Assembly: GCA_964604555.1 (NCBI GenBank)
Contig: CAZRZK010000009.1
Span: 11,261 to 75,260, forward strand
DNA: 64,000 bases
From: an uncultured Pseudobdellovibrionaceae bacterium
GTDB lineage: Bacteria > Bdellovibrionota > FAC87 > UBA2466
Direction of reading: 5' to 3'
Shown here: piece by piece, positions 11,929 to 34,694 of the stretch
Layout: every line of letters starts with the position of its first letter
Numbering within the stretch: position 1 is the first letter of the stretch
Translations under genes and position numbers: made by a program
The notes under the pieces: model-generated
Databases searched by the model: none
The model's input: the letters and a program-made list of their open reading frames with translations, nothing else
Told to the model about the DNA's origin: nothing

Positions 11929-12364
11929 CTGCTCCTGAACGAATAAAAGATTTGCTTAAAGAGGAGCAGTTCCAAATGGACCGCCATTGAGCTGAGGGGA
12001 CCGTAGTGAGAGTCCAAGGATTACTGGGAACCCCTTGCGCTTCGTCTAATATCTTCTTGTTCTGAGCTGCGTAAGCGGTCAAGACTGGATGGGAACCATC
12101 ATAGGCATTCCCTTGCATCTCCAAAACCGTTGGATACTTCGGAGTGTAGTTCGCCGGATCTTCCTTTAACGCGATTGATGCGGTCGCCACTGCCACCGCC
12201 GCCCTGAGCGCCCCCAGAGCTCCGTAGGTCGCTCCGTTTTTCGCCTCTACTCGGAAGTCGATGAAGTTCGGTATCGCGATTGCGGCCAATATCGCCAGCA
12301 ACAAAATCACCATTACCAATTCGATTAAGGTAAATCCACGGAGATTGCGGAGTTTTTTTATCAT
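11825..12364 (-). CDS. Type IV pilin (PilA-like), tandem copy 2
   Basis: Leader MIKKLRNLRG|FTLIELVMV with Glu5, and a C-terminal disulfide loop C-x19-C. Over 90% identical to the adjacent copy. Confidence 0.8.
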   Translation of the reverse strand: MIKKLRNLRGFTLIELVMVILLLAILAAIAIPNFIDFRVEAKNGATYGALGALRAAVAVATASIALKEDPANYTPKYPTVLEMQGNAYDGSHPVLTAYAAQNKKILDEAQGVPSNPWTLTTVPSAQWRSIWNCSSLSKSFIRSGADEQHIGWCYNATTGQIWANSAKNSGTSGNSENEY

Positions 12365-12373
12365 TCCTTACTC

Positions 12374-12913
12374 TTAGTATTGGTTCTCTGTATTTCCAGC
12401 CGAACCCGCGTTTTTAGCAGAGTTCGCCCAGATCTGACCTGTGGTTGCATTGTAACACCACCCGAGGTGTTGTTCATCTGCTCCTGAACGAATAAAAGAT
12501 TTGCTCAAAGCGGAGCAGTTCCAAATCGATCGCCATTGAGCTGTGGGGACCGTAGTGAGAGTCCAAGGATTACTGGGAACCCCTTGCGCTTCGTCTAATA
12601 TCTTCTTGTTCTGAGCTGCGTAAGCGGTCAAGACTGGATGGGAACCATCATAGGCATTCCCTTGCATCTCCAAAACCGTTGGATACTTCGGAGTGTAGTT
12701 CGCCGGATCTTCCTTTAACGCGATTGATGCGGTCGCCACTGCCACCGCCGCCCTGAGCGCCCCCAGAGCTCCGTAGGTCGCTCCGTTTTTCGCCTCTACT
12801 CGGAAGTCGATGAAGTTCGGTATCGCGATTGCGGCCAATATCGCCAGCAACAAAATCACCATTACCAATTCGATTAAGGTAAATCCACGAGCCAATCTTT
12901 GTTTAAGCGTCAT
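12374..12913 (-). CDS. Type IV pilin (PilA-like), tandem copy 1
   Basis: Leader MTLKQRLARG|FTLIELVMV with Glu5, and the same C-terminal Cys loop. A near-identical direct duplication of about 490 bp shared with copy 2. Confidence 0.8.
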   Translation of the reverse strand: MTLKQRLARGFTLIELVMVILLLAILAAIAIPNFIDFRVEAKNGATYGALGALRAAVAVATASIALKEDPANYTPKYPTVLEMQGNAYDGSHPVLTAYAAQNKKILDEAQGVPSNPWTLTTVPTAQWRSIWNCSALSKSFIRSGADEQHLGWCYNATTGQIWANSAKNAGSAGNTENQY

Positions 12914-17052: not shown

Positions 17053-18120
17053 CTATTTTATGACTTCGGTATCGATACGTGTTTTCAGAATGTACTTATC
17101 TTTGAAGGTCATCACGATAGAGGCGACTAATCGGCCATTTCCCTCAGCATCTGGAACCTGATCAAATACAATTTCTGTCTTCTCAAGATCAGAGGAACTA
17201 TAACTTTTTCCATCTATAAAGAAATCAACCAACAATTTATTCTCCCCCTCTTGGTAGAAGGGATAACCATAAGTACCATTCCATTGGTTAGTAACGTAGG
17301 TCACGCCAATAGCAGGAATAAAGTTCATTTCGAAGGATAAAGAATGCGAGTATCGAAGCAAAGAGTACTCGGATGGATCAGCGAATTCATATTTTTGGAT
17401 CGAAAACCGAAAGACCGGGCCGTAGGATTCGGAATCGGCTTGAATCGCCGGGAAGTAGTTGGCAGAGACCGCATTGGGAATCAATTCGACAATTTCTTCG
17501 ACTGGTTCGGGAGGAGGAGTGTACACATAGACTTCAGCTTCCGCGTCCAGTGTAAACTTTAAACTAATATCCCCCTTGAGGAAGAGATTTACGATTACCG
17601 ATAGGGTTCGCTCTCCTTCGGCGCTGGGTAGTTTGATGAAGGTAATTTCTGCCTTTTCAATATCCTCCTCAAAAAACAATTCATTGCTCTCAGGATCGTG
17701 CCACAAAAAGCCATCGATTCTGAGCCATTTTTCATCCGTATTGTAGTAGAGTTGCGTGGAGGAAAATTCTGAATGCTGCTGAAGGGAATAGGAAGTTCCC
17801 GGTTCAGGGACAAAGTTCAAATCTAATACGAGCGAATGAGATAAGCCACTTGCTTCATAGGTATAGGCTCCAATTGCGAGATAATCGGAGTAGCTACCCC
17901 ATGCATTCTGATATGCGGGTTGAAAGTACGCTTGAACTGAATCCGATATTAATTCTACCGTTCTGGGTTCACTGGTTTTCTGCTCCTCGCTTTGGTTTGT
18001 CGAACTGCTTTGAGACTTGTCCTCCGATTTTTTTTCCGGAGCCTTGCCCGTTCCTCGGTCGACGCCGCAGCTGGTAGCTAAAAACACACATAAAATCAAT
18101 GGGTTAAGGCGCTTAATCAC
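17053..18120 (-). CDS. Lipoprotein with internal two-domain duplication
   Basis: Signal peptide with lipobox (FLATSC). Two ~95-aa repeats have parallel motifs (NFVPEPGTSY...AEITFIKLPSAEGERTL / NFIPAIGVTY...TEIVFDQVPDAEGNGRL). Confidence 0.5.
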   Translation of the reverse strand: MIKRLNPLILCVFLATSCGVDRGTGKAPEKKSEDKSQSSSTNQSEEQKTSEPRTVELISDSVQAYFQPAYQNAWGSYSDYLAIGAYTYEASGLSHSLVLDLNFVPEPGTSYSLQQHSEFSSTQLYYNTDEKWLRIDGFLWHDPESNELFFEEDIEKAEITFIKLPSAEGERTLSVIVNLFLKGDISLKFTLDAEAEVYVYTPPPEPVEEIVELIPNAVSANYFPAIQADSESYGPVFRFSIQKYEFADPSEYSLLRYSHSLSFEMNFIPAIGVTYVTNQWNGTYGYPFYQEGENKLLVDFFIDGKSYSSSDLEKTEIVFDQVPDAEGNGRLVASIVMTFKDKYILKTRIDTEVIK

Positions 18121-18228: not shown

Positions 18229-19359
18229 ATGGATTACTCACATTTCATGGAGCCTGAAAGTGCGTTGGCTGGAAAAATGCCGACAAAGATTTGGGGAAAT
18301 GTGGTGGTGATCCCTTTAATGGGGGAATCGGATGCGATCCTCAATTCATTCATTCAACAGATCCGAAACTGTCTGGTAATCGCGGTCATCAATCACCACG
18401 CAGAAACACCCCTCGAACAGATCCTTTTGAATAAAAAAATATGGGATCGACATGCGCCCCCAAGCACGGATTTCTATTTTTGCCCACAATTGAACGGAGT
18501 GGATATTCTTTTCATTAGAAAAGAGGTCCCGAAAAAAGAGGGGGTTGGGTTAGCTCGCAAATTAGGCTGTGATATCGCTTACCAATTAAAGAAGCTGAAT
18601 CGAATCGAATCGGCCTATATTCACACCACCGATGGGGATGCGACAATCGGTCCCGATTATTTTGAACTTCGCGACTCCTCAGCCTCGGCTTGGGTTCATC
18701 CTTTCGAACATGTTCCCTGTTCAACTGAAGCGACCCCAGAAGTGAATCGAGCGACCGAAATTTATGATCGATTTTTGCGCTATTACGTGGCGGGACTCGC
18801 CTATGCCGAATCTCCCTATGCCTTCCAAACGATTGGAAGCGCGATCGCCGTGCGAGCCGATAGCTACGCGGCAGTCAGGGGCTTCCCCAAAAAGAACGCG
18901 GGAGAGGATTTTTACCTTTTGAATAAAGTGGCAAAACTGGGAAAAGTGAAAGAAGGGGGAGGAAAGATCCAGCTCCGTTCCCGGATCTCCGATCGGGTTC
19001 CCTTCGGCACCGGAGCTTCCGTCAAAAAAATTACCGCCCAGCTTCTACAAGATGAAACCCCTCACTTCTATTCTCCCAGGATATTTCAATCGCTGCATAC
19101 TTTACTCAAGGAATGGGAATCTTTTCTTGATCACCAGTCGATCGATAAGATAAGTCGAATCGAGACCGAGTTTTTCGCTCCCTACGACCTCGAAAATATC
19201 TGGAGTACATTCTTAAAAGGCTCAAAGAGCCGGGAAACCCTGAAACGGAAAATTGAAGGTTGGTTTGATGCCTTCCGTACTCTTAAATATGTCCATTATC
19301 TAGACGAACATCGACACCCAGAGGTGCCCTATTACGAAGCTTTTGAAAGTTTTCGTTGA
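18229..19359 (+). CDS. Hypothetical protein, possibly glycosyltransferase family 2-like
   Basis: Strong RBS (AGGAGG) before the ATG at 18229. VVVIPLMGE and TDGDATIGPDYFE (DxD-like) motifs are suggestive, but the similarity is weak. Confidence 0.3.
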   Translation: MDYSHFMEPESALAGKMPTKIWGNVVVIPLMGESDAILNSFIQQIRNCLVIAVINHHAETPLEQILLNKKIWDRHAPPSTDFYFCPQLNGVDILFIRKEVPKKEGVGLARKLGCDIAYQLKKLNRIESAYIHTTDGDATIGPDYFELRDSSASAWVHPFEHVPCSTEATPEVNRATEIYDRFLRYYVAGLAYAESPYAFQTIGSAIAVRADSYAAVRGFPKKNAGEDFYLLNKVAKLGKVKEGGGKIQLRSRISDRVPFGTGASVKKITAQLLQDETPHFYSPRIFQSLHTLLKEWESFLDHQSIDKISRIETEFFAPYDLENIWSTFLKGSKSRETLKRKIEGWFDAFRTLKYVHYLDEHRHPEVPYYEAFESFR

Positions 19360-21260
19360 ATTGGTAGGATTAAGGTAAAACGACTTCCCTTCCCCACTTC
19401 ACTGACGACGGTGATGTCGCCCCCATGCTGTTGCATGAGGTTATAGGCGATGCTAAGGCCAAGACCGGTCCCCTTCCCAATCTCTTTGGTGGTGAAAAAA
19501 GGATCAAAGATCTTATTTTGGATATCGGGAGGGATGCCGGTCCCATTATCCTCAATTTCTATTTTCACTTTCTCTTCATTGGCGGAGGTTCGGATCCAGA
19601 TTTCGCCCTTGTCCCGAATCGCCTGGCAGGCATTGGACAGAATATTCACCAGCACCTGGTTAATCTGAGAAAGGTTGCATTCCACTTTTGGTAACAAACC
19701 AAAATCCTCATGCACGTGGATCCTTCCTTTAATTTCCGATTGCAGGAGTTTCAATGTGCTCTTAATCCCCTCATGGACATCGCAAGGGGCATATCCCGAT
19801 CCATCGGTACGGGAAAAGGTCCGAAGTCCCAAGACGATATCTTTGGTTCGATTGGCCCCTTCAAGCGAACTTTTTGCCAAGTCCTGCATATCATTTAAGA
19901 CAAAATCGATCTCCAATTCCCTTTCGATCTGTTCAATCGCTTTGCGGTCGGCCTCTGAAAGTTGCGGATACAGGCGCCGGAAGTTTTCGATCAGCTTTTT
20001 CACCTTCTGCACATATTCCTGCAGATGGTGCATATTACTGTAAATAAAAGCGATTGGATTATTGAGTTCATGGGCAACACCCGCCACAATCTCCCCCAAG
20101 GAGATCATCTTAGCCGATTGCACCAAACGAGTTTGGGTCTGTCGAATCTCTTGGTTGGCACTTCTCAACTCATCCAACTTCATTTCAAGGGTGCGTTTGG
20201 CCGCATTCACCTTCGACGCCATTTCATTAAAGCTTTGCAGCAAGAATTCGACTTCATAGGTAGAATCAACGGTGGGGATCTGATCTACAACCCCGGTCTT
20301 CATCCGCTGCATGCCATTCACTAAGGTTCTCAAGGGATTCACGATCCGATTTGAAACTAAAAAAATTACCAGACTCGTCACAAACACCAAAAAAATAGTG
20401 AGTGAGAAGACGGCCCATTTCACCTGTTCAAAAGCACGATCGGAAAAAGCGGTCGACATAAAGATACACAGACTCCCCCAATCAGGATTCCGGGAAAGAT
20501 TGGAGGGAAGAGAAAAAATAAAACCGGCATAGTTCGATTCCCCCAATGCAATCGAGTGGGGGCCTGGTTTTCCAAATTGCTTGAGTGGAAGGGCATCGAT
20601 CACGAACTTCCCAACCACATCCCGGGAAAGGGCAAAGCTGGCGGCCCGAGCGGTATATTCTTTATCTAAAATGGCTACCTCAATGCCACGACGGTTCTTA
20701 ATGGCGATCAGATCGGCGCCCCCAAAACCATTCTCCTCTTCTAAGATCCCTAAGACCCGATCCCCTCGCTTTACCAAAAGCCGCACCACGGTGATAAATC
20801 CATCCTCAATGAAATAGCGATCGATCGTCTCTCCACGCTCCTTGACCCGTTTCATTCCCAATTTCGAGAGATAAGGAATCCGACGCTCGGCCATCAGTCC
20901 GAATCGTCCATTCAAATACTGACCACTTGGATCATAGAGACGAATCTGGTGGAGAGGGCCGCGTAACCCGCCAATAGAGAGTCCTTTTTTTCCACGGAAC
21001 CCATCTAGAACCGCCTCTTGCCCACTATGAAGTCGCGCGGTGGAAAGGAGTTCCGCATCAAAATTATCGATTAACGAAAGGATGGCATCCCGTTCGGAAT
21101 GGGCCCGATGTTCCAGCGCCTCCCGATTGCCTTTTTCATAGAGGTGCATGCAATAAAAGCCGACAAAAATGGCAGGCAGAATCGCGATGGGAATGAAATA
21201 AACCGATAGGACCGTCTTGAGTGACAGGGTTCCGGGGGCGATGGAGATCGGTTTTTTCAT
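19332..21260 (-). CDS. Sensor histidine kinase (periplasmic sensor, HAMP, HisKA, HATPase)
   Basis: Two TM segments flank a ~250-aa periplasmic domain. H-box [10 protein letters not shown], then N, G1 (DNGTGI) and G2 (GTGLGLSI) boxes. Confidence 0.8.
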
Positions 21261-21265
21261 CTATT

Positions 21266-21805
21266 TTAGAAATACCAGTGCATGCCTAGTCCTGCATATG
21301 TGCCGTTGGAGAGATTGAAGAAACGGAAAAGGTATTGGGCTTCAGCAAAAAATGAAAAACCCAGGGCATGCATGAACTGGACTCCTACAGCGGGGTAGAA
21401 CATCCACACATTGAAGCCTTTATTGTAATCGGTATCCCCGCCCAAAAATTTATTCGTCAACACCGATGGACCAATCTTTTGTGCCGAAGTGCCAGATGTC
21501 CACCACCGTGCAATCCCAAAGGCGGCATAAGGACTCACCCATTCTCCTGTCAGAAAAAATCGGGCCTTCACCATAAAGGTGGAATAGTCCATGCCCGTTC
21601 CCAATCCCATGGAAAGGCTTATGTCAGGAGTGAGATTAGCGTCGGCCTCGAGCCCTAAAATTGAAAGCGGTCCGCCGCCGCTGGCCCCAATTCCAAACCG
21701 CCGCTTCGATTTCAATTCCTCTACATTCTGAAAAGACGACGTTTGGGATTCTTGAGTTGCCGCAAATACCCAACTGCTGATTAAGAAAAAGATAAGGTAT
21801 CTCAT
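21266..21805 (-). CDS. Outer-membrane beta-barrel protein (small OMP)
   Basis: Strong RBS precedes the start at 21805. Signal peptide MRYLIFFLISSWVFAAT, alternating amphipathic strands and a C-terminal aromatic (..MHWYF). It is the last gene of the Mla-like operon. Confidence 0.5.
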   Translation of the reverse strand: MRYLIFFLISSWVFAATQESQTSSFQNVEELKSKRRFGIGASGGGPLSILGLEADANLTPDISLSMGLGTGMDYSTFMVKARFFLTGEWVSPYAAFGIARWWTSGTSAQKIGPSVLTNKFLGGDTDYNKGFNVWMFYPAVGVQFMHALGFSFFAEAQYLFRFFNLSNGTYAGLGMHWYF

Positions 21806-21875
21806 GATATTTCTCCTTATATTAGACGAGATTGCCGCGTCACTCGCTGCGCTCGTTCCTCGCAATGACAGAGTG

Positions 21876-22664
21876 CTAAAAAATCTTGGCCCGAATTCCT
21901 TCTTCCTGCAGAAACTGTTTCAACGTGGGCTTATCAATCTGATATCCCCGTCGGATCATCTCCCTCAACTGCTGGATCGTTGCCTGGCCCTCTTGTCCTG
22001 TTAGGCCATGGCTCAACTGCCTTAAATCATCGGTTAACGCTGCCAGATTTTCGACCAAATGGAAAAGTCGTTTTTTCTCCGCCCCTTTTAAGAGGCTATT
22101 GGCTTGGGTCAACAACTGTGAAGTGTTGGTTAAAAACTCCGTCAGTACCTTTTCATTTTGATCCAAGAAATCCTGGATGCGGCCAAAAACTCCGTAACCT
22201 TGTGAAAGGAGCTGGTCTATTCGAGGAGGATCCACTCCCCTCACCTCCGCACCGGGTTTTAATAATGGCGATTGGGCGGAACCGGGACTGATCTCCACAT
22301 ACCGTTCCCCGATGATTCCAGCGATGTTGATAAAAAATCGGGAATCTTCCCGAATCGTGTGAAGGGCTCGACGTGCAACCGAGATCCCAACCTTGACGGT
22401 AGCCCCCTCTTTTCCAATCCCGACTTCAGGGGACAAAAATTCGATCGCATCGACCTTTCCAACTTTTACGCCCGAAACCCTCACCGGCGCGCCGACTTCT
22501 ACGCCTCCCGCGAAACTATATAAAACATGAAAGCGCTCCTGATCGATCCACCGTCCAATCCATCCCAATAGGGTGGCAAAAACACCTAATAAAAGAAGGG
22601 ATACAATAAAGAGAAGGCCTACCCAAATATTTTTAGCCTTATTTCCTTTAGATTGGATTTCCAT
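21876..22664 (-). CDS. MlaD/Mce-family substrate-binding protein
   Basis: N-terminal TM followed by an MCE domain (VLYSFAGGVEVGAPVRVSGVKVGKVDAIEF). Confidence 0.7.
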   Translation of the reverse strand: MEIQSKGNKAKNIWVGLLFIVSLLLLGVFATLLGWIGRWIDQERFHVLYSFAGGVEVGAPVRVSGVKVGKVDAIEFLSPEVGIGKEGATVKVGISVARRALHTIREDSRFFINIAGIIGERYVEISPGSAQSPLLKPGAEVRGVDPPRIDQLLSQGYGVFGRIQDFLDQNEKVLTEFLTNTSQLLTQANSLLKGAEKKRLFHLVENLAALTDDLRQLSHGLTGQEGQATIQQLREMIRRGYQIDKPTLKQFLQEEGIRAKIF

Positions 22665-22732
22665 GCTATGCGTTATACCGAATGGTGTGGGAATTGGTAA
22701 GGGGATTGGGGAACAGCTTTATTATACCCTTT

Positions 22733-23410
22733 TTATACGGTGTATAGAAGGTAGGTCAGAAGAAAATCGCTGAGAATGATTAAAACGGAGCTCCGCACCA
22801 CCGATTGAGTGGCACTTTCTCCTACCCCCGCACTGCCGGAGCTGCTCCTAAGGCCTGTAACGCATGACACCACCGCTAAAATTACCCCAAAAACGGCGCT
22901 TTTAATGAGGCATCCCACCAGATCGCTCATGTGGGTGAAGGTAAACATCGTGTTCATGAACTCACCCGGTTGGAGATCGATTTGCCAGCTCGCTATCCAG
23001 GCCCCTGAAAAAATCGCGACGGCAAGGGCCACCAGGACCAACATCGGAGCTCCCAATAGGCAGGCCAAAGTTCGAGGGACCAGCAAATAGATCCTGGGGT
23101 CGATGCGAAGCAATCTCAGGGCATCCAATTGTTCGGTTATTTTCATGGTGGCGATCTCCGCCCCCATCCCGGCCCCTACCCGTGAAGCCATCAGCAGGCA
23201 GGTGACCACCGGCCCCAGTTCCCGCACCATTAACAGGGTTGAAAAGGAAGGAACCAGAGAGTTCTGTTTCAGGACCATTTTTAAGTGAAATGAAAATTCG
23301 ACAATCGTAATTAGGGTAATCACCGTGAGTGAAAGGAGAATAACGGGAACACTTTCGACAGCAACCTCATAAAGCTGGTGCAGAGTTTCTTCAATTAAAA
23401 GTCGAATCAT
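22733..23410 (-). CDS. MlaE/YrbE-family ABC permease (paralogue B)
   Basis: MlaE-like pattern (ITEQLDALRLLRIDPRIYLLVPRTLA) in a 225-aa protein. ATGA coupling with the upstream permease. Confidence 0.65.
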   Translation of the reverse strand: MIRLLIEETLHQLYEVAVESVPVILLSLTVITLITIVEFSFHLKMVLKQNSLVPSFSTLLMVRELGPVVTCLLMASRVGAGMGAEIATMKITEQLDALRLLRIDPRIYLLVPRTLACLLGAPMLVLVALAVAIFSGAWIASWQIDLQPGEFMNTMFTFTHMSDLVGCLIKSAVFGVILAVVSCVTGLRSSSGSAGVGESATQSVVRSSVLIILSDFLLTYLLYTV

Positions 23411-24147
23411 GCGAACACACTCGAAAACAAAAAGGATAAAAGTGAATCAATGCCGATAATCACCACCAAACATTCTACCGCCGCACTCCGGACAGTCCGT
23501 CCCACTCCAGCCGATCCTCCTTCAGCATAGTAACCATGGAAACAGGCAATGAGACTAATCAACACGCCAAAACAAAAACTTTTCAATAACCCCAACATCA
23601 CACTCGTCGCTGTCACAATCTGGGGCATTTCATGAATATAGCGCGCCGGATCAACCCCTAATTGCACCATTGAGATGAAAATACCACCGCCGATCGCACA
23701 CATCATCCCGATCACCAGCAAAAGAAAACTGGAGAGAGTGACTGCAATCACTCTGGGGACAATTAAATAGCGGATAGGATTGATTCCCAAACAACGGATT
23801 GCATTGAGCTGATCGGTCACCTGCATCGTTCCCAATTCCGCGGCGGTATAGGCACCCACTTTTCCGGAAAGAATGAAAGCGATGAGTACAGGCCCCACAT
23901 TCCGAATCGTCACGGAAGCGGAGAGCCCTCCTAAAAAGATCTGCGCTCCAAAATCCCTCACCTGGAGATAGATCTGGATAGCAATAATCGCCCCCACAAA
24001 AAGCCCAGTGACCAAAGTCGTCAGGATCGAATGGACCCCCACTCGATAGATCTGATCAATCACCGCAGTCAGGTTAAATCCCGAATGGAACAACTCCGAT
24101 AAAGTCTCTCCACTAAACCGTACCCGTCTTCCTAAAGCACTTAACAT
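23407..24147 (-). CDS. MlaE/YrbE-family ABC permease (paralogue A)
   Basis: MlaE signature region (VTDQLNAIRCLGINPIRYLIVPRVIAV) and 5-6 TM segments. Confidence 0.7.
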   Translation of the reverse strand: MLSALGRRVRFSGETLSELFHSGFNLTAVIDQIYRVGVHSILTTLVTGLFVGAIIAIQIYLQVRDFGAQIFLGGLSASVTIRNVGPVLIAFILSGKVGAYTAAELGTMQVTDQLNAIRCLGINPIRYLIVPRVIAVTLSSFLLLVIGMMCAIGGGIFISMVQLGVDPARYIHEMPQIVTATSVMLGLLKSFCFGVLISLIACFHGYYAEGGSAGVGRTVRSAAVECLVVIIGIDSLLSFLFSSVFA

Positions 24148-24212
24148 CTAACCTGCCCTTCTTGCCCGGCCCTCTTGAAGGAAGGCCTGCATCAGAGGGT
24201 CATCTGAAACGG

Positions 24213-24857
24213 TTAGTTCTTCAGGTGTTCCTTGGACCAAAATCCCCCCCCCTCAATCAAGGAAACCCTATCAGCAATCTCTAAAGCACATTGCATATCG
24301 TGTGAAACAACAATCGCTCCGACCCCTAAATGTTGCACCAATCGTTGGATAAGATGATTCATCGATCGTGTGGCGACGGGATCCAAACCGGTCGTCGGTT
24401 CATCAAATAAAAGATAGTTTGGCTTCAAGAGCATCGCCCGCAAAACACTCACCCTTTTCTGTGTTCCTTGGCTTAATTCATAAGGAAATTTCGGTAATAT
24501 CTCTTCACCTAACCCTAGCCATTCTAACCCTTGTGAGATCCCATCGCTTCCTGCCAATAATAGATTTTCCTGAATAGAGAGAGAATCCAACAATGCAGGA
24601 AATTGAAAAATCAGCGCACACTTCCGACGGATACGGAACCAATCGTTTTCGGTGAAAACCTCAGTTTTTTCCCCATCAATCGTTATTTTTCCGGAATCGG
24701 GGAGAAGCAACCCCACCAAATGTTTCAACAGGACCGATTTCCCCGTGCCCGATCGCCCCATCACGAAATGGATCTGACCCGGCACAAACTGGATCGAAAA
24801 ATCCTTAAATACGGTCAAATTCCCAAAACTTTTTGAAAGAGACTCGACCGAAATCAT
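24213..24857 (-). CDS. ABC ATPase (Mla-type), subunit with degenerate signature motif
   Basis: Walker A GRSGTGKS, Walker B LLFDEPTTGLD and H-loop VVSHD are intact. The signature is LSQGTQKR, degenerate relative to LSGGQ. Confidence 0.75.
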   Translation of the reverse strand: MISVESLSKSFGNLTVFKDFSIQFVPGQIHFVMGRSGTGKSVLLKHLVGLLLPDSGKITIDGEKTEVFTENDWFRIRRKCALIFQFPALLDSLSIQENLLLAGSDGISQGLEWLGLGEEILPKFPYELSQGTQKRVSVLRAMLLKPNYLLFDEPTTGLDPVATRSMNHLIQRLVQHLGVGAIVVSHDMQCALEIADRVSLIEGGGFWSKEHLKN

Positions 24858-25546
24858 TGGACTCCCCTTAAAAAGCGAACCACTCTGGAATTGGAAGTGT
24901 TTTTGAAACTTTCCAAAACACCATCAAAGGCTAACTTTCCTTGATCCAAAAAGAGAACACGTGTCGCAATCGCCTGAATAATTCCCAGATCCCCAGAGGC
25001 TAGAACCAAGGTAAACTGGAGTCGTTTCCAATGCTCTAAAATCAAATCCACAATCGAGCGAGCGGTGACAGGATCGAGCCCAGCGGTCGGCTCATCCATC
25101 AACAAGAGTTGCGGTTCCTGCAAAAGGGCACGGGCAATCCCCAAGCGTTTTTGCATCCCTCCGCTCAAAGCGCTTACCGGCATTGCACCCACCTTAGACA
25201 ACCCCACCGCCTGAAGCATGTTCTCCACTCGTTGGCGGCGTTCTATCCCCTTCAGTTTCAGGTGGGCCTTGAGATAAAGCTCGAGATTCTCCCCGCACGT
25301 CATTTTATCGAGCAAACCGCCGCGCTGGAAGGTCATCGCGCAATCCATCCCCTCCACTTGTATTTGCCCTGAAATCGGCGACAACAAACCGGCAATGGTT
25401 TTCAGAAGAAGGCTTTTCCCAACCCCGCCTTCACCAATCACCCCCACCGCCTCCCCTTCAGGAATGGAGAATTGAAGATCGGAGAGAATAGGAAGCGTGT
25501 AACCGCAAGTCAGGTTTTCACATTGGAGAGGCACTTCATTCATCAT
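24854..25546 (-). CDS. ABC ATPase (Mla-type), subunit lacking the H-loop His
   Basis: Walker A GEGGVGKS, canonical signature LSGGMQKR and Walker B LLLMDEPTAGLD. The H-loop position reads LASGDLG, with no His. Confidence 0.75.
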   Translation of the reverse strand: MMNEVPLQCENLTCGYTLPILSDLQFSIPEGEAVGVIGEGGVGKSLLLKTIAGLLSPISGQIQVEGMDCAMTFQRGGLLDKMTCGENLELYLKAHLKLKGIERRQRVENMLQAVGLSKVGAMPVSALSGGMQKRLGIARALLQEPQLLLMDEPTAGLDPVTARSIVDLILEHWKRLQFTLVLASGDLGIIQAIATRVLFLDQGKLAFDGVLESFKNTSNSRVVRFLRGVQ

Positions 25547-25766
25547 AGAAAGGGGTTAGCCTACTTTCAATGAAAAGCTGACCGGAACTTCTGTTCCGGA
25601 TCAAAGAACGGAAATCGATAGGTTTTCACCGCCCTGAGTTTGTTATGGGCCGAACAAAGCAGCTGAATATTGCTCTCATCATGGGAGCTCCCTACTTTTC
25701 AAGCCCCACCCCCAATCTGACAACTTTGCGTCGACTGCCCCCGTCAGATGCGGTAGCCTTCCCAAC

Positions 25767-27215
25767 GTGTTAAAGATAGACTTTCAGGGTATTTCAAAGC
25801 GATTTGGTGCGGTTCAAGCCAATTCTGAAGTTACCTTTACCGTCCAACCGGGAACTATCCACGCTCTGGTCGGGGAAAATGGGGCCGGCAAGTCGACCCT
25901 GATGAAGATCCTGGTAGGGCTCATTCCTCCCGATAGCGGTGCTTTTCTCTTAGACGGATCACCCGCCCATTTCCGTTCAACCCTTGATTCAATGGCTATC
26001 GGAATCGGAATGGTTTACCAGCATTTTATGTTGGTGCCCACGCTCAATGCCTGGCAAAACATCACCCTCGGCCATGAACCTTTTTGGATAGACACTCAAA
26101 AAATCAAGGAGAGATTAAAACCACTCCTCGAAACGCTTCATTGTTCTCTCGACCTTGAAATGCCAGTGGGCGAGATGAGCATCGGTCAGCAGCAGCAGGT
26201 GGAGATTTTGCGAGCCCTATTTTACGATTCCAAAGTCCTTATTTTTGACGAACCCACCGCCGTCCTGACCCCACAGGAAGCGGAAAAGCTCTTCCATCAA
26301 ATCCGGGCATTGAAAGCCAAAGGTAAAACGATTCTCATCATTACCCATAAACTCAAAGAGGTCTTGTCCCTTTCCGATTCAATTACCGTATTGCGCAACG
26401 GGAAAAGCGTGGGAACTTTTCCTACCCATGAGATGGATGAAATCACCCTTTCGGAAAAGATGATCGGGCAGCGCCGCATCCCCCTTTCGATTCAATCCAG
26501 TGAAGGGCCAAAGAGAGAAGAATGCCTGCTTGAGATCCAAACTCTCTCCACTCCCCATTGTCTGCGAGAACCCTTGAGAGAGCTTTCACTCGAAGTTCAT
26601 AGCCATGAAATCGTTGGTATAGCGGGGGTGGAAGGAAATGGACAGAAACGGCTCCTCGAATGTCTGGCAGGAATCGAAAAAAATTTTACGGGAGAACTCC
26701 GGATCACTGGCAAGGGAATGGGCATTCTCCCCTCCGATCGATTGAATGAGGCGGTGATTCCCGAATTCGATTTGGCGGAAAACCTGATTTTAGGACATCA
26801 AAAAAAATATGGTCCGGTGTTTGACTGGAAAAACCTCCATCAAAAAACGGAAGGATTGGCCAAGGATTATCATGTCACTCCTCCCGATTCGCATCTGCAA
26901 ATGCGCCAGCTTTCGGGAGGCAACCAACAAAAATTTGTGGTGGCCCGAGAACTTTCCGAACCGATTCAATTGGTCATCGCGGCCCACCCCACCCGTGGGG
27001 TTGATATAGGGGCGTGCGATTTCATTCACCAGAACCTTTTAAAACTGAAAACCGAAGGAGCGGGGATTTTACTCATCTCTTCAGATCTGGATGAACTGCT
27101 GCTCCTATCGGATCGCCTCCTCATTATTTTCGATGGCAAGATCGTTTCTAATACTCCTCGAGGAAAATTGACCGCCAATGAAATCGGGCTTTGGATGACC
27201 GGAGGGGGCAAATGA
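25767..27215 (+). CDS. ABC transporter ATP-binding protein with two NBDs (CUT2 / nucleoside-sugar type)
   Basis: N-terminal NBD has GENGAGKST and LIFDEPTAVL. C-terminal NBD has LSGGNQQK with a degenerate Walker B (AAHPTRGVD), typical of RbsA/NupA-like proteins. Confidence 0.8.
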   Translation: MLKIDFQGISKRFGAVQANSEVTFTVQPGTIHALVGENGAGKSTLMKILVGLIPPDSGAFLLDGSPAHFRSTLDSMAIGIGMVYQHFMLVPTLNAWQNITLGHEPFWIDTQKIKERLKPLLETLHCSLDLEMPVGEMSIGQQQQVEILRALFYDSKVLIFDEPTAVLTPQEAEKLFHQIRALKAKGKTILIITHKLKEVLSLSDSITVLRNGKSVGTFPTHEMDEITLSEKMIGQRRIPLSIQSSEGPKREECLLEIQTLSTPHCLREPLRELSLEVHSHEIVGIAGVEGNGQKRLLECLAGIEKNFTGELRITGKGMGILPSDRLNEAVIPEFDLAENLILGHQKKYGPVFDWKNLHQKTEGLAKDYHVTPPDSHLQMRQLSGGNQQKFVVARELSEPIQLVIAAHPTRGVDIGACDFIHQNLLKLKTEGAGILLISSDLDELLLLSDRLLIIFDGKIVSNTPRGKLTANEIGLWMTGGGK

Positions 27216-28237
27216 ATCGATTTCGATCTCTGTTACTCCTTTTGATGGGTTTTCTCATCGCCGTTATTTTTTTATTGATTGTGGGCGAAAGCCCGATCGT
27301 TTTCCTAACCGCTGTCAAAAACACCCTTACGACTGGTTTTGGTTGGGGATACACCCTTTACTTCGCCACTCCTCTTATTTTTACCGGACTTTCAGTGGCA
27401 TTGGCATTTCATGCCGGACTTTTTAACCTGGGAGCAGAAGGGCAACTCCATCTTGGCGCTCTGGGGACGGTGCTAGCCGCATTTTTTCTTCCACAACTCC
27501 CTTGGCCACTGGCCTGGGCACTCGGAATCTTCGGAGCCATTCTTCTGGGCGGAGGTTGGGGAGCTGTTGCGGGATGGTTAAAGGCCAAGCGCTCGGCTCA
27601 TGAAGTGATCATCACCATCCTCATGAACTTTATTGCGATCGCGATCGTTGATTATGCCCTACTTACATTCTTAAGAAATCCAGAACAGCAGCAGGCCGAA
27701 TCGATTCCTACTCCAGCGAATTATTGGCTCCCTCTGTTTTCAAAATGGATTCCTGCACTTGAGAATACTCCGGTGAATGGAAGCTTCATTCTTGGAATTT
27801 TGGCCTGCCTTCTTGTCTATTTTATTTTGCATCGCACTCCATTTGGATTTTCCCTACGCGTTGTCGGTAAAAATAAGAGGGTTGCCCAATTTGCGGGAAT
27901 TGCCCCAGACAATGCGATTGTAATCAGCTTCTTCCTATCCGGAGCTCTGGCCGGAATGGTAGGAGTGAATGAGTTGATGGGATATGAACACCGCTTGATG
28001 AGTGGATTTTCCCCGGGCTATGGATTCACCGGGATCGCAGTCGCTCTTCTAGCGAACAATCATCCGATTGGAATCTTCTTCTCCGCTTTCCTCTTCGCCG
28101 TTTTGCAGAATAGCGCCCGGGAAATGGAATTTTTGAGCGATCATGCCACCAAAGAGATCTCGCTGGTGATCCAAGGTGTGCTCGTGGCAGTGTTAATCTG
28201 TGATCGTTGGTTCCAATTTCGAAAGGAGAGGCGATGA
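27212..28237 (+). CDS. ABC transporter permease (CUT2 family, NupB/RbsC-like)
   Basis: 8-10 TM segments. ATGA overlap with the ATPase stop. Confidence 0.7.
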   Translation: MNRFRSLLLLLMGFLIAVIFLLIVGESPIVFLTAVKNTLTTGFGWGYTLYFATPLIFTGLSVALAFHAGLFNLGAEGQLHLGALGTVLAAFFLPQLPWPLAWALGIFGAILLGGGWGAVAGWLKAKRSAHEVIITILMNFIAIAIVDYALLTFLRNPEQQQAESIPTPANYWLPLFSKWIPALENTPVNGSFILGILACLLVYFILHRTPFGFSLRVVGKNKRVAQFAGIAPDNAIVISFFLSGALAGMVGVNELMGYEHRLMSGFSPGYGFTGIAVALLANNHPIGIFFSAFLFAVLQNSAREMEFLSDHATKEISLVIQGVLVAVLICDRWFQFRKERR

Positions 28238-29091
28238 GCGATTGGCTAGCCAGTGCTTTAAGATTAGCAACTCCCCTTCTCTTTGCGGCGATGGGCGGAT
28301 TACTGAGTGAGCGGAGTGGAATTGCAACAGTTTGCTTAGAGGGAGTGATGCTGATTGCTGCCTTTGCGGCGGCGACGATTGCCGCCCTCACCCAAAACCT
28401 TGCCCTTGCTATTCTAGGAGCCCTCTTTGCGGGAACCCTTGCGATGATGTTGCATGCCTATTTATCGCTCTACCAGAAAGCGGATCAAGTGGTGAGCAGC
28501 ATGGCGATCAACCTACTCGCGATCGGGATCACCCCTTTTCTCTGCAACCACTATTTTGGAAGCCCGACCAATACTCCTAGCCTTCCTTTAGACCTTCGAG
28601 TCCCTTCAACCTTGTTAACCTGTTTGGCGCTCGTCATTGCGGCAGGAGAATATTTTGCTTTTCGATATACGCGATGGGGAATCTGGATACCAGCGGTAGG
28701 AGATCACCCAGACGCTTCGAAATCTTGTGGAATATCCCCGAAAAGAGTAAGGCGATGGACTCTGCTAGTGGCAGGACTGTTTACCTCAATGGGAGGAATA
28801 TACCTCTCTATTTCCCATGGCAGTCAATTCACCCGTGAAATGACTGCAGGCCGAGGCTTTATCGCTCTTGCTGCCATTATCTTTGGAAAATGGAAACCAG
28901 GCCCTACTATTTTTGCCTGCCTCTTTTTTGGCGGTGCCGATGCCCTTCAGATCGTTCTTCAGAATCAACCCTGGCTTCCCATTCCAGTGCAATTCCTTCA
29001 GATCATTCCCTATGCAGCCACCTTATTTATACTGATAGGCGTCATGGGAAAATGCCAAGCCCCACTATCGATTGGAAAAGTACAGGATTAA
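28234..29091 (+). CDS. ABC transporter permease (CUT2 family, NupC-like)
   Basis: Multi-TM protein. ATGA overlap with the preceding permease, and an RBS (AAAGGAGAGG). Confidence 0.7.
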   Translation: MSDWLASALRLATPLLFAAMGGLLSERSGIATVCLEGVMLIAAFAAATIAALTQNLALAILGALFAGTLAMMLHAYLSLYQKADQVVSSMAINLLAIGITPFLCNHYFGSPTNTPSLPLDLRVPSTLLTCLALVIAAGEYFAFRYTRWGIWIPAVGDHPDASKSCGISPKRVRRWTLLVAGLFTSMGGIYLSISHGSQFTREMTAGRGFIALAAIIFGKWKPGPTIFACLFFGGADALQIVLQNQPWLPIPVQFLQIIPYAATLFILIGVMGKCQAPLSIGKVQD

Positions 29092-29267
29092 GGAGGCAAC
29101 ATTTTCTTGCCTGTTATCAGATTTATCACAAAACTAATCACAGCAAGAACGACAAAAACCCCTAACAAGAGTCTCCCGGCCTCAATTGAAACCCCTGCGA
29201 CGCCGTAAGCACCAAATAACATCGCTAATAAACCCAAAACAAAAAAAGTAATTGCGGCTCTAATCAT
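29088..29267 (-). CDS. DUF1328-family small membrane protein (YtjA-like), 58 aa
   Basis: Absent from the ORF table because it is under 60 aa. GGGAGG RBS before the ATG at 29267. The sequence MIRAAITFFVLGLLAMLFGAYGVAGVSIEAGRLLLGVFVVLAVISFVINLITGKK fits the DUF1328 pattern. Its stop overlaps the BON gene. Confidence 0.5.
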   Translation of the reverse strand: MIRAAITFFVLGLLAMLFGAYGVAGVSIEAGRLLLGVFVVLAVISFVINLITGKKMLPP

Positions 29268-29773
29268 TGTGTCCTCCCGATTCTCAAATGGTTACTGATA
29301 TCTTTCACTCCTGAAACTCCTTCAATACAATCCTCTGCTAGTCTTTTTTCCTGACGAGTTTCCACCGTTCCCCTTAGGATTACCTCTCCATTGTCCACAC
29401 TCACTTCAATGTTAGAGGCATCAATATCATCGTGACGATAGAGAGCCTCATTCACATCTTCTTGAACGCGAGCATCGGAGCGGATGTAATTCTTAGGACC
29501 TTTTCCAAAATGGCTGCCGGCTCGTGGCGCGCCGCCTCTCCATCCCCACTGCTGTCGAGGTTCATAAGAATGCATCCGGCTTGGACCGAAGTTTACTTCA
29601 TTATGATCTTCACTCATCTCGTCTCCGGCATCCTCCCAAGATAATCCTATCGAGGGGGGAAGTTCCTCTTGACCACTATTGGGTGCCCAAACATGTTCAC
29701 GCCGATGAAGGCGATGGGTTGGATTTCGCGCCCACCGGTATTCATCCTGACCTGGATAATAATGGTGTTTCAT
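29264..29773 (-). CDS. BON-domain protein (OsmY-like)
   Basis: C-terminal BON domain (VSVDNGEVILRGTVETRQEKRLAEDCIEGVSGVKDISNHLRI). The start is placed at the Met at 29773, which has an AAGGAG RBS. Confidence 0.7.
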   Translation of the reverse strand: MKHHYYPGQDEYRWARNPTHRLHRREHVWAPNSGQEELPPSIGLSWEDAGDEMSEDHNEVNFGPSRMHSYEPRQQWGWRGGAPRAGSHFGKGPKNYIRSDARVQEDVNEALYRHDDIDASNIEVSVDNGEVILRGTVETRQEKRLAEDCIEGVSGVKDISNHLRIGRTQ

Positions 29774-29801
29774 TTGCACGCTCCTTGATAGAATTTGGTT
29801 C

Positions 29802-29817
29802 TGCAGGTTTGATGCCA
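29802..29817 (-). promoter_or_regulatory. Putative sigma-54 -24/-12 promoter upstream of the BON/DUF1328 genes
   Basis: Minus-strand reading is TGGCAT-caaac-CTGCA, with the GG-N10-GC spacing correct. It lies about 25 nt upstream of the BON start. Confidence 0.45.
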
Positions 29818-29921
29818 AAGAAACACAAGCACTAGCACCAGTGAGAATCGGGAAATTTTCCCGGTTCCCGTCGTTGCGAGGCCCCATCGGGGCCGAAGCA
29901 ACCCTTTTTTATTCTTTTGAG

Positions 29922-30395
29922 TTAAGCCAAGCGAGAGAGGATGGATTTCTCGACTTCGCTGATTTGAGTTTCGTATTGCGGCTTTTTAGACCGAAGAAAA
30001 TTGGCGACCCAATGGGTAACCCCACTCAATGCGGAACGACGGAGCATATTTAATTCTGGCTGGAACTCTTTGATCGCCATCTTCCCTTTTTCCTCAAACC
30101 AAGAGTTTTTCTTAGGAAGATAGGAGGCGTGGATGAATTCATGGCGTATCGGCTCACTCGCCCCATTAACGGCTTTCCCCACCACCATTCCTCCGACCAC
30201 ACCCACACCAAAAGCGACGCCCACACTTGCCCAGGGATGTTTATCGACTTGATTCTTAAGGGAAAGATCTTCAACTTTGGCCTTCACCTTCTCTTTAAAA
30301 TCATAAACCCTGGCTTCCATTTCATGGACTTTTTCTCCCAGGTTTTCACTCGCCCGACTCAACTCCATTTTTAACACCTCTTTTTGGTTATACAT
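29922..30395 (-). CDS. DUF883/ElaB-like membrane-anchored stress protein
   Basis: The hallmark HPWASVGVAFGVGVVGGMVVG (HPW + Gly-rich TM) follows an N-terminal coiled-coil region. Confidence 0.55.
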   Translation of the reverse strand: MYNQKEVLKMELSRASENLGEKVHEMEARVYDFKEKVKAKVEDLSLKNQVDKHPWASVGVAFGVGVVGGMVVGKAVNGASEPIRHEFIHASYLPKKNSWFEEKGKMAIKEFQPELNMLRRSALSGVTHWVANFLRSKKPQYETQISEVEKSILSRLA

Positions 30396-30799
30396 GTGAT
30401 TGTCTCCTTGAAGTTATCGATTAAATGTTGGGGGCCCCAGATTATTTTTGAAAACCGGAGCCAATTGACCCAAATCACAGGAATTGCAACTGCCAGAAAA
30501 GCCAACGCGATCAGTGCAAAGCTGCTCGAAAGGTTCATCCCTGCTTTATCCACGAGCAATACCACAAGAAAGCCGGCCACCAACTGCACACCGACTAATA
30601 GAAGGAGCATTCCAGCAAAAACATTCTTCAAACTATGCTGGGCTGATTCATAACGCTCTTTCAACTCCACTTGGAAAAGCGCCAACTGTAGGTGCACCAC
30701 CTCAGTTAGGCTTTTCCAAGCCTCTTTACTGATATTGAGAAAAGGCTCCTTCGTAGGCTCTTCAATCTGCTCTGATCTTAATAAAGTTACTGTACTCAT
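30371..30799 (-). CDS. YqjE-like (DUF1469 / holin-X-like) membrane protein
   Basis: Amphipathic helix HLQLALFQVELKE followed by two TM segments, and gene order upstream of the ElaB-like gene as in E. coli yqjD-yqjE. Overlaps the downstream gene. Confidence 0.5.
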   Translation of the reverse strand: MSTVTLLRSEQIEEPTKEPFLNISKEAWKSLTEVVHLQLALFQVELKERYESAQHSLKNVFAGMLLLLVGVQLVAGFLVVLLVDKAGMNLSSSFALIALAFLAVAIPVIWVNWLRFSKIIWGPQHLIDNFKETITCITKKRC

Positions 30800-34569: not shown

Positions 34570-34610
34570 TGTGTTCTCCTTTAATGGTTGATTGCTTATG
34601 ATTTTAATAT

Positions 34611-34626
34611 TGCAAGGACAAGGCCA
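34611..34626 (-). promoter_or_regulatory. Putative sigma-54 -24/-12 promoter for the csbD-dps operon
   Basis: Minus-strand reading is TGGCCT-tgtcc-TTGCA, about 40 nt upstream of the csbD ATG, with an AAGGAG RBS between. Confidence 0.45.
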
Positions 34627-34694
34627 AGTGATCTGAGCCCGGAGAGGAAGCGATTTTTTCCTGACGCGGGGAATTTTTCCCGGCGAGCCGGAAT

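What the first reader, a model, noticed from the sequence alone, without database searches (positions are those of the whole stretch)
21266..25546. Mla/Mce-type transporter with two different ATPases forming one consensus and one degenerate ATP site, plus two different MlaE permeases
The operon encodes ATPase-ATPase-MlaE-MlaE-MlaD-OMP, with ATGA coupling between successive genes. ATPase A (24213-24857) has intact Walker A/B and H-loop but a degenerate signature (LSQGTQKR). ATPase B (24854-25546) has a canonical signature (LSGGMQKR) and Walker A/B but no H-loop His (LASGDLG). In a head-to-tail heterodimer this gives exactly one canonical composite site (A's Walker/H-loop with B's signature) and one doubly degenerate site. 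That asymmetry is known from heterodimeric exporters but is not the textbook MlaF2E2 arrangement. The two distinct permeases recall actinobacterial YrbEA/YrbEB pairs in Mce systems, here in a diderm with its own small beta-barrel OMP.
Basis: seen in the sequence. Interest (0 to 1): 0.6.

Follow-up and report, generated by a model that had tools for sequence, protein, structure and literature searches.

The report
Lopsided two-ATPase Mla lipid transporter operon
This operon encodes an Mla/MCE-type lipid transporter that uses two different ATPases and two different permeases, so that only one of its two ATP sites looks catalytic; the design is conserved across Bdellovibrio-like and myxobacterial genomes but I found no published description of it.

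Summary
On the minus strand lie ATPase B, ATPase A, MlaE1, MlaE2, MlaD and a small outer-membrane beta-barrel. A sensor histidine kinase starts 5 nt after the barrel gene.

ATPase A keeps Walker A, Walker B and the H-loop His but has signature LSQG. ATPase B keeps signature LSGG but has Gly in place of the H-loop His. This is a family trait, not a quirk:
- 117 of 120 B-type homologues lack the His.
- 0 of 121 A-type sequences keep the signature Gly, and all keep the His.
- Single-copy MlaF neighbours are fully canonical.

The order B-A-E1-E2-MlaD recurs in at least 11 other loci, mostly labelled Bdellovibrionota. A variant order B-E1-E2-A occurs in Myxococcota.

- ATGA overlaps occur at only two of five junctions.
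- The ATPase A ORF is cut short by a frameshift in a 9-G run. One extra G restores a conserved C-terminus whose stop abuts the MlaE1 start.
- The barrel (AlphaFold pLDDT 92.6, 8 strands) starts at 21805.

Best reading: an A·B·E1·E2 core with one catalytic and one degenerate ATP site, a MlaD ring and a dedicated outer-membrane partner. It is a new variant of a known kind. No complex or activity was tested here.

The parts
24854..25546 (-). ATPase B: an ABC nucleotide-binding subunit with consensus signature LSGGMQKR, Walker A GEGGVGKS and Walker B/D-loop LLLMDEPTAGLD, but Gly in place of the H-loop His (LASGDLG).
   Evidence: Pfam ABC_tran E=1.8e-29. H-loop position fixed by alignment to ABCA4 and to canonical MlaF. 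Among 120 homologues the H-loop residue is N90, S25, G1, T1, H3.
24148..24857 (-). ATPase A: an ABC subunit with intact Walker A (GRSGTGKS), Q-loop, Walker B (DEPTTGLD) and H-loop (VSHD), but degenerate signature LSQGTQKR. As an ORF it stops at 24213. The conserved C-terminus lies in another frame, 24243..24148.
   Evidence: Pfam ABC_tran E=2.3e-28. Signature aligned. In the A family, signature position 3 is Y96/F19/Q2/other and never G, and the H-loop His is present in 121/121. C-terminal continuation shown.
24244..24252 (-). Run of nine G (C on the + strand) at which the ATPase A frame breaks. Ten G would restore the full 236-aa protein.
   Evidence: It is the only G/C run of 8 or more in the 64 kb. 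It is absent from orthologues, which use mixed codons there. No other homopolymer-linked frameshift was seen in the window.
23407..24147 (-). MlaE1 permease, 246 aa.
   Evidence: PF02405 E=2.1e-66. TIGR00056 scores 207 bits against a cut-off of 212. It is 31% identical to MlaE2.
22733..23410 (-). MlaE2 permease, 225 aa. Its ATG overlaps the MlaE1 stop (ATGA).
   Evidence: PF02405 E=5.2e-62. The E1 and E2 clades are each recovered in other genomes.
21876..22664 (-). MlaD-like MCE protein, 262 aa: an N-terminal membrane helix, an MCE domain, then a helical C-terminal region of about 110 residues ending in the conserved FLQEEGIRAKIF.
   Evidence: PF02470 E=7.7e-16. Orthologue alignment. The secondary structure comes only from a low-confidence model (pLDDT 44.8).
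21266..21805 (-). Small outer-membrane beta-barrel, 179 aa, with signal peptide MRYLIFFLISSWVFA and a C-terminal ...HWYF.
   Evidence: AlphaFold2 with a 38-sequence alignment gives pLDDT 92.6 and 8 strands. Foldseek matches OprF N-domain, Ail, OmpA and OmpX. The family has 69 members; the 37 homologues aligned are 46-77% identical to it. It follows MlaD in L003, L085, L086, L006, L011 and L032.
19332..21260 (-). Sensor histidine kinase, 642 aa (two membrane segments, HAMP, HisKA, HATPase_c). It starts 5 nt after the barrel's stop and is probably co-transcribed.
   Evidence: Pfam. The same position in L003, L085 and L086.

Best explanation
The six genes most likely encode one envelope lipid transporter of the Mla/MCE type. 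Its inner-membrane engine would be a hetero-tetramer: MlaE1·MlaE2 in the membrane, and ATPase A·ATPase B in the cytoplasm.

ABC ATP sites are composite, formed by Walker A/B, Q-loop and H-loop of one subunit and the signature of the other. The A·B pair would therefore have one fully consensus site (A's catalytic half with B's LSGG). The other site would lack the H-loop His on B's side and the signature Gly on A's side. That second site probably still binds ATP, because B keeps the Walker A Lys, the aromatic A-loop residue and the Q-loop. It would hydrolyse ATP slowly or not at all, acting as a structural or regulatory site as in heterodimeric ABC exporters.

Two unlike permeases would fix which ATPase sits under which half of the membrane domain, making the whole motor asymmetric. 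A MlaD hexamer with a helical C-terminal extension would receive or deliver the lipid. The co-encoded 8-stranded barrel is the likely outer-membrane end of the route. Substrate and direction are unknown.

What is shown: gene families, motif states, their conservation and complementarity, gene linkage, and the barrel fold. What is inferred: the A·B and E1·E2 heterodimers, one-site catalysis, and MlaD-barrel contact.

In this particular assembly ATPase A carries a 1-nt frameshift. This is either an assembly error or a recent or phase-variable lesion.
For: - Families: ABC_tran twice, MlaE twice, MlaD once.
- Motif positions are fixed by alignment to solved ABC proteins and to canonical MlaF.
- Complementary degeneracy is conserved. 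For B-type, 117/120 lack the H-loop His, while 120/120 keep SGG, the Walker A Lys and the Q-loop Gln.
- For A-type, 0/121 keep the first signature Gly and 121/121 keep the His.
- Among the loci, six B subunits also carry Walker B Asp-Asp. That is the same Glu-to-Asp plus H-loop combination reviewed for degenerate sites of ABC exporters (PMC7756269).
- All 12 single-copy MlaF genes tabulated are canonical at every motif.
- Linkage: B-A-E1-E2-MlaD occurs in L001, L003, L006, L009, L011, L016, L032, L085 and L086. L002 and L004 repeat the arrangement of L001 and L003 until their contigs end, and in L007 the contig ends after A.
- B/A and E1/E2 overlap by ATGA, and the repaired A stop abuts the E1 start.
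- The E1 and E2 clades each contain Bdellovibrionota-type and Myxococcota members.
- A homodimer of A or of B would have two defective sites. Only A·B yields a perfect one (logic from the motif table).
- The barrel is confident and conserved next to MlaD.
Against: - No complex was modelled or measured. The tools fold single chains only.
- The NJ trees are weakly supported for the deep nodes: B clade 18%, all-A 27%, E1 44%, E2 72%. A single origin is therefore not proven.
- In this window B keeps the catalytic Glu, so its site may retain some activity.
- A's signature differs from consensus at one residue only (G to Q).
- ATPase A is frameshifted here, so the system may be inactive in this organism.
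- The MlaD model is poor (pLDDT 44.8). MlaD-barrel contact rests on gene linkage alone.
- The barrel is absent after MlaD in L001 and L016.
Confidence: 0.7

Rival explanations
1. Two separate homodimeric transporters are encoded side by side (for example B2·E1 2 and A2·E2 2) and share or compete for one MlaD. The motif changes are unrelated drift.
For: Homodimeric MlaF2E2 is the textbook arrangement (PMC7790496). In Myxococcota the order is B-E1-E2-A, so the ATPase genes need not be adjacent.
Against: - Each homodimer would carry two defective sites, whereas the heterodimer has one perfect site.
- The defects are strictly partner-specific in about 120 members of each family.
- The four genes were always found together, with only one MlaD in the operon.
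- Bdellovibrionaceae genomes keep a separate canonical E-F-D locus (L027, L029).
Confidence: 0.07
2. In this genome the locus is a decaying or switched-off copy. The frameshift in the 9-G run truncates ATPase A, so no functional heterodimer is made unless slippage restores the frame.
For: - The deposited protein is the truncated 214-aa form (P0190).
- The tract is the only long G/C run in the window, and other homopolymers sit in intact genes. The assembly is therefore not generally error-prone at homopolymers.
- The tract is absent in orthologues.
Against: - All other genes of the operon are intact and well conserved.
- The out-of-frame C-terminus is still perfectly readable and ends exactly at the MlaE1 start. 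The lesion is therefore very recent or an artefact.
- A single missing G in a 10-G run is a common sequencing or assembly error (general knowledge).
Confidence: 0.2
3. Both ATP sites are catalytically competent and the substitutions are tolerated neutral variants. The system works like ordinary MlaFEDB apart from having paralogous subunits.
For: Window B keeps Walker A, Walker B Asp-Glu, the Q-loop and the D-loop. A's signature keeps Ser and the second Gly.
Against: - Neutral drift would not remove the same two positions in about 120 clusters of each family while leaving the partner's equivalent positions invariant.
- The loss co-occurs with Walker B Glu-to-Asp in six B subunits from the loci.
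- H-loop His and signature Gly substitutions are the recognised marks of degenerate sites (PMC7756269).
Confidence: 0.08

Closest known systems
MlaFEDB of Escherichia coli, Acinetobacter and Pseudomonas (PDB 6XBD, 7CH8, 7D06 and others)
   Same: It has MlaE-family permeases, a membrane-anchored MCE protein and an MlaF-like ABC ATPase. MlaF chains are among the PDB sequence matches of both A and B.
   Different: - The known system is MlaF2·MlaE2, with two identical consensus ATP sites, a STAS partner MlaB and a C-terminal MlaF 'handshake' (PMC7790496).
- Here there are two ATPase paralogues (31% identical) and two permease paralogues (31% identical).
- There is no long MlaF C-terminal extension, and no MlaA/B/C Pfam hit among the ~49 window ORFs scanned.
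- MlaD is longer (262 aa) and a barrel gene follows it.
Three-gene MlaEFD 'bridge' systems with long MlaD (Veillonella parvula; Grasekamp et al. 2023, PMC10665443)
   Same: It has no MlaABC, and a MlaD with a helical C-terminal extension. An outer-membrane beta-barrel is associated with the system.
   Different: In Veillonella the barrel is fused to MlaD, and there is one MlaE and one MlaF. Here the barrel is a separate 179-aa protein, and both the ATPase and the permease are duplicated. That paper reports duplications of MlaDE in Gracilicutes but, in the text I searched and the phylogenomics section I read, mentions no ATPase pair.
Actinobacterial Mce systems (YrbEA/YrbEB, MceA-F, MceG; PDB 8FED)
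   Same: It has two different MlaE-family permeases forming one membrane domain.
   Different: Mce uses one ATPase (MceG) as a homodimer and six different MCE proteins. Here there are two ATPases and one MCE protein. In my tree the E1/E2 pair groups apart from the single-copy MlaE sequences sampled. No actinobacterial YrbE was included.
Heterodimeric ABC exporters with one degenerate site (TM287/288, LmrCD, BmrCD, PatAB, TAP1/2, ABCC proteins including CFTR)
   Same: The logic is the same. One subunit loses the H-loop His, often together with Walker B Glu-to-Asp. The other loses the consensus signature, and both changes fall in the same composite site (PMC7756269). From memory, CFTR NBD2 carries LSHGH and SUR1 carries FSQGQ, the same position as LSQG, LSHG and LSYG here.
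   Different: Those are type IV/V exporters with fused transmembrane and nucleotide-binding domains. Here the ATPases are separate subunits of an Mla-type transporter with an unrelated membrane fold. The resemblance is convergent, not homologous beyond the ABC domain.

Membership tests
Mla/MCE-type ABC transporter (MlaE + MlaD + MlaF-like core) | MlaE-family permease (PF02405) | tested here: met
   Two copies, E=2.1e-66 and 5.2e-62.
Mla/MCE-type ABC transporter (MlaE + MlaD + MlaF-like core) | Membrane-anchored MCE-domain protein (PF02470) in the same operon | tested here: met
   E=7.7e-16. A hydrophobic N-terminal segment WVGLLFIVSLLLLGVFATLLGWIG is visible.
Mla/MCE-type ABC transporter (MlaE + MlaD + MlaF-like core) | ABC ATPase encoded with the permease | tested here: met
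   Two ABC_tran genes. MlaF chains are among the PDB hits.
Proteobacterial six-component Mla (MlaA-F), equivalog level | MlaF equivalog score (NF008809, cut-off 441 bits) | tested here: not met
   A scores 112.7 bits and B scores 105.6 bits.
Proteobacterial six-component Mla (MlaA-F), equivalog level | MlaB (STAS), MlaC and MlaA present | tested here: not met
   No such Pfam hit among the ~49 window ORFs scanned. Four ORFs of 120 aa or more (34588-34950, 59015-61294, 61382-61810, 61451-62770) were not scanned. The rest of the genome was not available.
Proteobacterial six-component Mla (MlaA-F), equivalog level | Homodimeric MlaF2 and MlaE2 | tested here: not met
   Two paralogues of each, 31% identical, conserved as pairs. 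Actual stoichiometry was not measured.
Actinobacterial Mce system | Two different YrbE/MlaE permeases | tested here: met
   E1 and E2.
Actinobacterial Mce system | Six different MCE proteins and a single MceG ATPase | tested here: not met
   One MlaD gene and two ATPase genes.
ABC transporters with one degenerate nucleotide-binding site (functional class) | Non-consensus catalytic residues (H-loop and/or Walker B Glu) in one NBD, and a non-consensus signature in the other, mapping to the same composite site | tested here: met
   B has H-loop Gly (Asn/Ser in the family). A has signature LSQG (LSYG/LSFG in the family).
ABC transporters with one degenerate nucleotide-binding site (functional class) | Asymmetric ATP hydrolysis or occlusion shown biochemically | not testable with these tools
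   This needs purified complex and site-specific mutants.
Small 8-stranded outer-membrane beta-barrels (OmpA-TM / OmpX / Ail-like; Pfam OMP_b-brl PF13505) | Signal peptide, an even number of antiparallel strands closing a barrel, and a C-terminal aromatic residue | tested here: met
   AlphaFold pLDDT 92.6 with 8 strands. Foldseek matches OprF-N at E=3e-6, plus Ail, OmpA and OmpX. The protein ends in HWYF.
Small 8-stranded outer-membrane beta-barrels (OmpA-TM / OmpX / Ail-like; Pfam OMP_b-brl PF13505) | Pfam PF13505 match | tested here: inconclusive
   The window protein has no Pfam hit at E<=0.01 (scanned as the 199-aa ORF starting at the upstream TTG). Nine of 69 homologues carry a precomputed PF13505 hit.

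The most novel reading that the evidence does not exclude
The B-A-E1-E2-MlaD-barrel module may be a distinct, so far undescribed class of MCE machine. It would be a trans-envelope lipid conduit whose motor is intrinsically asymmetric, with one catalytic and one regulatory ATP site and unlike permease halves. Its outer-membrane end would be a dedicated integral beta-barrel rather than MlaA, PqiC or a MlaD-fused barrel. It would be old enough to be shared by Bdellovibrionota and Myxococcota. In one subclade it would be wired to its own sensor kinase. The asymmetry could be what sets transport direction.
Probability: 0.3. Interest if true: 0.7.

Novelty: new variant of a known kind. Interest (0 to 1): 0.55.

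Why it matters
How Mla-type transporters couple ATP to lipid movement, and in which direction they move lipid, is still debated. All studied examples have symmetric motors.

A naturally asymmetric version, with one site already disabled by evolution and the two permease halves distinguishable, gives a built-in handle for experiments. One could ask which half does what, whether one ATP per cycle suffices, and whether the degenerate site regulates the cycle.

It also extends the degenerate-site principle from exporters to a different ABC architecture with separate ATPase subunits. It adds a separate small barrel as a candidate outer-membrane partner of MCE proteins. Related loci carry labels of culturable taxa (Bacteriovorax stolpii, Bdellovibrio sp.), so tractable hosts may be available.

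Tried and rejected
- The exhaustive representative search with ATPase B was swamped by tandem-ABC proteins with summed scores. It said nothing about the B subfamily.
- The single-sequence AlphaFold model of MlaD was poor (pLDDT 44.8). I used only its rough secondary structure.
- The promoter and terminator scan of 18800-26000 gave fewer sites than shuffles. The one good promoter-like site overlaps the start codon of B, so operon limits rest on spacing and synteny.
- In one search my barrel query was one base out of frame, so the absence of barrel hits there is meaningless. I redid this with a profile.
- The first NJ run timed out.
It gives examples, not a census, and did not recover the window's own genome.
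- The exact-protein look-up of the window's B found no contig record and the cluster look-up gave no names. The organism is therefore inferred only from labels of homologues.
- I considered PagL- or PagP-like enzymatic barrels and rejected them. The barrel family has no invariant His to pair with Ser.
- I considered programmed frameshifting at the G run and judged it unlikely, because orthologues lack the tract.


Full report
**What is in the sequence**

Between 25546 and 21266 on the minus strand there are six genes.
- ATPase B: 25546..24854, 230 aa.
- ATPase A: 24857..24213 as an open reading frame.
- MlaE1: 24147..23407.
- MlaE2: 23410..22733.
- A MlaD-like MCE protein: 22664..21876.
- A small secreted protein: 21805..21266.

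Pfam assigns ABC_tran to the first two (E=1.8e-29 and 2.3e-28). It assigns MlaE to the next two (2.1e-66 and 5.2e-62) and MlaD to the fifth (7.7e-16). It assigns nothing to the sixth.

A 642-aa sensor histidine kinase (HAMP, HisKA, HATPase_c) starts 5 nt after the sixth gene on the same strand.

ATGA overlaps join B to A and E1 to E2 only. The E2-to-MlaD gap is 68 nt and the MlaD-to-sixth-gene gap is 70 nt.

The ATPase A reading frame ends 9 codons after a run of nine G (24244-24252). In the neighbouring frame the DNA continues ILVQGTPEELTVSDDPLMQAFLQEGRARRAG. Its TAG lies directly against the MlaE1 ATG.

Adding one G gives a 236-aa protein. Their C-termini align with the restored segment, for example LLDGGKVAVDGSPTALLKSEHPVARAFLQEARARGG. 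The public record holds the truncated 214-aa form (P0190).

Several observations bear on whether this is an error or a real lesion.
- The tract is the only G/C run of 8 or more in 64 kb.
- Orthologues use mixed codons at this spot.
- No other homopolymer in the window breaks a gene.

I cannot tell an assembly error from a recent or phase-variable lesion. Conserved programmed recoding is unlikely because the tract itself is not conserved.

**The motifs**

Alignment to solved ABC proteins and to canonical MlaF places every motif without gaps.
- A carries GRSGTGKS, a Q-loop Gln, LSQGTQKR, DEPTTGLD and VSHD.
- B carries GEGGVGKS, a Q-loop Gln, LSGGMQKR, DEPTAGLD and ASGD.

So A deviates only at the first Gly of the signature. 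B deviates only at the H-loop His.

**Is it more than chance?**

Yes. The evidence comes from three comparisons.
- Among the 120 best B-type homologues, the H-loop residue is Asn in 90, Ser in 25, Gly in 1, Thr in 1 and His in 3. All 120 keep SGG, the Walker A Lys and the Q-loop Gln. Eight also have Asp for the catalytic Glu.
- Among 121 A-type sequences, the signature position is Tyr in 96, Phe in 19 and Gln in 2, and it is never Gly. All 121 keep the H-loop His.
- The 12 single-copy MlaF genes tabulated, each next to one MlaE in other genomes, are canonical at every motif.

The two defects therefore sit on opposite partners and fall in the same composite ATP site. A homodimer of either protein would have two defective sites. 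The A·B pair has one perfect site.

Walker B Glu-to-Asp together with H-loop loss in one domain, plus a non-consensus signature in the other, is the pattern reviewed for degenerate sites of ABC exporters (PMC7756269). From memory, CFTR (LSHGH) and SUR1 (FSQGQ) deviate at the same signature position.

**Conservation of the module**

The order B-A-E1-E2-MlaD recurs in the following loci.
- L001 and L003.
- L006 (Pseudobdellovibrionaceae).
- L009 (Bdellovibrionales).
- L011 (Bdellovibrionaceae).
- L016 (Bacteriovorax stolpii).
- L032 (Bdellovibrionales), where the contig cuts B.
- L085 and L086.
- L002 and L004, which repeat the arrangement of L001 and L003 until their contigs end.
- L007 (Bdellovibrionota), where the contig ends after A.

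Other points on distribution:
- L003, L085 and L086 also carry the barrel and the kinase in the same positions. L003 and L086 share the divergent Bmp-type ABC transporter seen at 25767-29091.
- A barrel homologue follows MlaD in L006, L011 and L032 too (E=1e-23 to 1e-31). It does not in L001 or L016.
- Two Myxococcota loci (L038, L049) have the order B-E1-E2-A with the same motif pattern. MCE genes lie outside that operon.
- Bdellovibrionaceae-labelled loci L027 and L029 carry a separate canonical E-F-D locus.

Rough NJ trees recover the Bdellovibrionota-type A, E1 and E2 groups strongly (98-100%). Deeper groupings that include Myxococcota are only weakly supported (18-72%). A single ancient duplication is therefore plausible but not shown.

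The window's own proteins are only 42-58% identical to their nearest relatives. Its organism is inferred from homologue labels only.

**The sixth gene**

With a 38-sequence alignment, AlphaFold gives a confident model (pLDDT 92.6). It shows eight strands, a short conserved N-terminal helix, and a helix-bearing loop between strands 5 and 6.

Foldseek finds the OprF N-domain, Ail, the OmpA transmembrane domain and OmpX.

The protein has a signal peptide and ends in HWYF. The family has 69 members. The 37 aligned homologues are 46-77% identical to it, which is higher than the identities seen for the ATPases. The family has no invariant His, which argues against a PagL-like enzyme.

**MlaD**

Orthologues share a helical C-terminal region and a strongly conserved end, FLQEEG(I/V)(R/K)A(R/K)(I/L)F.

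Published work on long MlaD proteins describes helical extensions. In some of those predictions a single terminal strand per monomer forms a small barrel (PMC10665443). I could not model this MlaD reliably, so any bridge to the barrel is inference from gene linkage.

**What it most likely is**

It is most likely an Mla/MCE-type lipid transporter with an A·B·E1·E2 core and one catalytic and one degenerate ATP site. It would also have a MlaD ring and a dedicated outer-membrane barrel. In one subclade it is linked to a sensor kinase.

It is not a member of the proteobacterial MlaA-F system at equivalog level.
- The MlaF model scores 106-113 bits against a cut-off of 441.
- No MlaA, MlaB or MlaC hit appears among the ~49 window ORFs scanned.

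It is also not an actinobacterial Mce system, because it has one MCE gene and two ATPases.

**Novelty**

I searched the held literature for MlaF with heterodimer or degenerate, for MlaE/MlaF/MlaD with Bdellovibrio, and for MCE with two ATPases. None of these searches found a description.

The broad phylogenomic survey of Mla notes duplications of MlaDE in Gracilicutes. It set MlaF aside because of annotation uncertainty. That library lacks many subscription papers, so prior mention elsewhere cannot be excluded.

I rate it a new variant of a known kind, of moderate interest.

Noticed in passing
window 19332-21260 (-); L003 10533-12491, L085 7519-9471, L086 7523-9469: A 642-aa sensor histidine kinase with a large periplasmic region follows the barrel gene by 2-22 nt in four genomes. 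No response regulator lies next to it. Its best NCBIfam match is the 'T2SS_HK' subfamily, at 277 bits against a cut-off of 450.
   Followed up: partly
window 25767-29091 (+): A divergently transcribed Bmp-type ABC transporter: a tandem-ABC ATPase of 482 aa and two BPD_transp_2 permeases. The same neighbour lies next to the Mla-like operon in L003 and L086, so the synteny extends beyond the operon.
   Followed up: partly
L038 3920-7099 and L049 7360-10529, 11304-13422: Myxococcota loci carry the same four core genes in the order B-E1-E2-A. Their Walker A motifs are unusual (GSAATGKS / GPAAAGKS in B). In L049 two tandem MCE genes lie convergently downstream rather than in the operon.
   Followed up: partly
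window 11371-12913 (-): Three tandem pseudopilin-like genes of about 180 aa each. Two have N-terminal methylation motifs and one has a T2SS protein G domain. The first two ORFs overlap by about 100 nt.
   Followed up: no
window 39798-41312 (+): A 504-aa protein with a HigB/RelE-like toxin domain at its C-terminus (residues 411-498). This domain is fused to a long N-terminal region that has only a faint Dna2-like hit. That is an unusual size and architecture for this toxin family.
   Followed up: no
window 17053-18120 (-): A 355-aa probable lipoprotein (LATSCG near the N-terminus) with no Pfam match. It appears to be an internal duplication of a unit of about 150 residues; compare ...AEITFIKLPSAEGERTLSVIVNLFLKGD... 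with ...TEIVFDQVPDAEGNGRLVASIVMTFKDK....
   Followed up: no
window 29264-30799 (-): A trio of small envelope or stress-type genes: a BON-domain protein, a DUF883 (ElaB/YqjD-like) protein and a holin-superfamily-III-like membrane protein.
   Followed up: no
L027 6629-8199 and L029 6668-8945: Bdellovibrionaceae- and Bdellovibrionales-labelled loci carry a conventional single MlaE-MlaF(-MlaD) locus with fully canonical ATPase motifs. Other loci with the same labels carry the two-ATPase system, so the clade appears to hold both types.
   Followed up: partly
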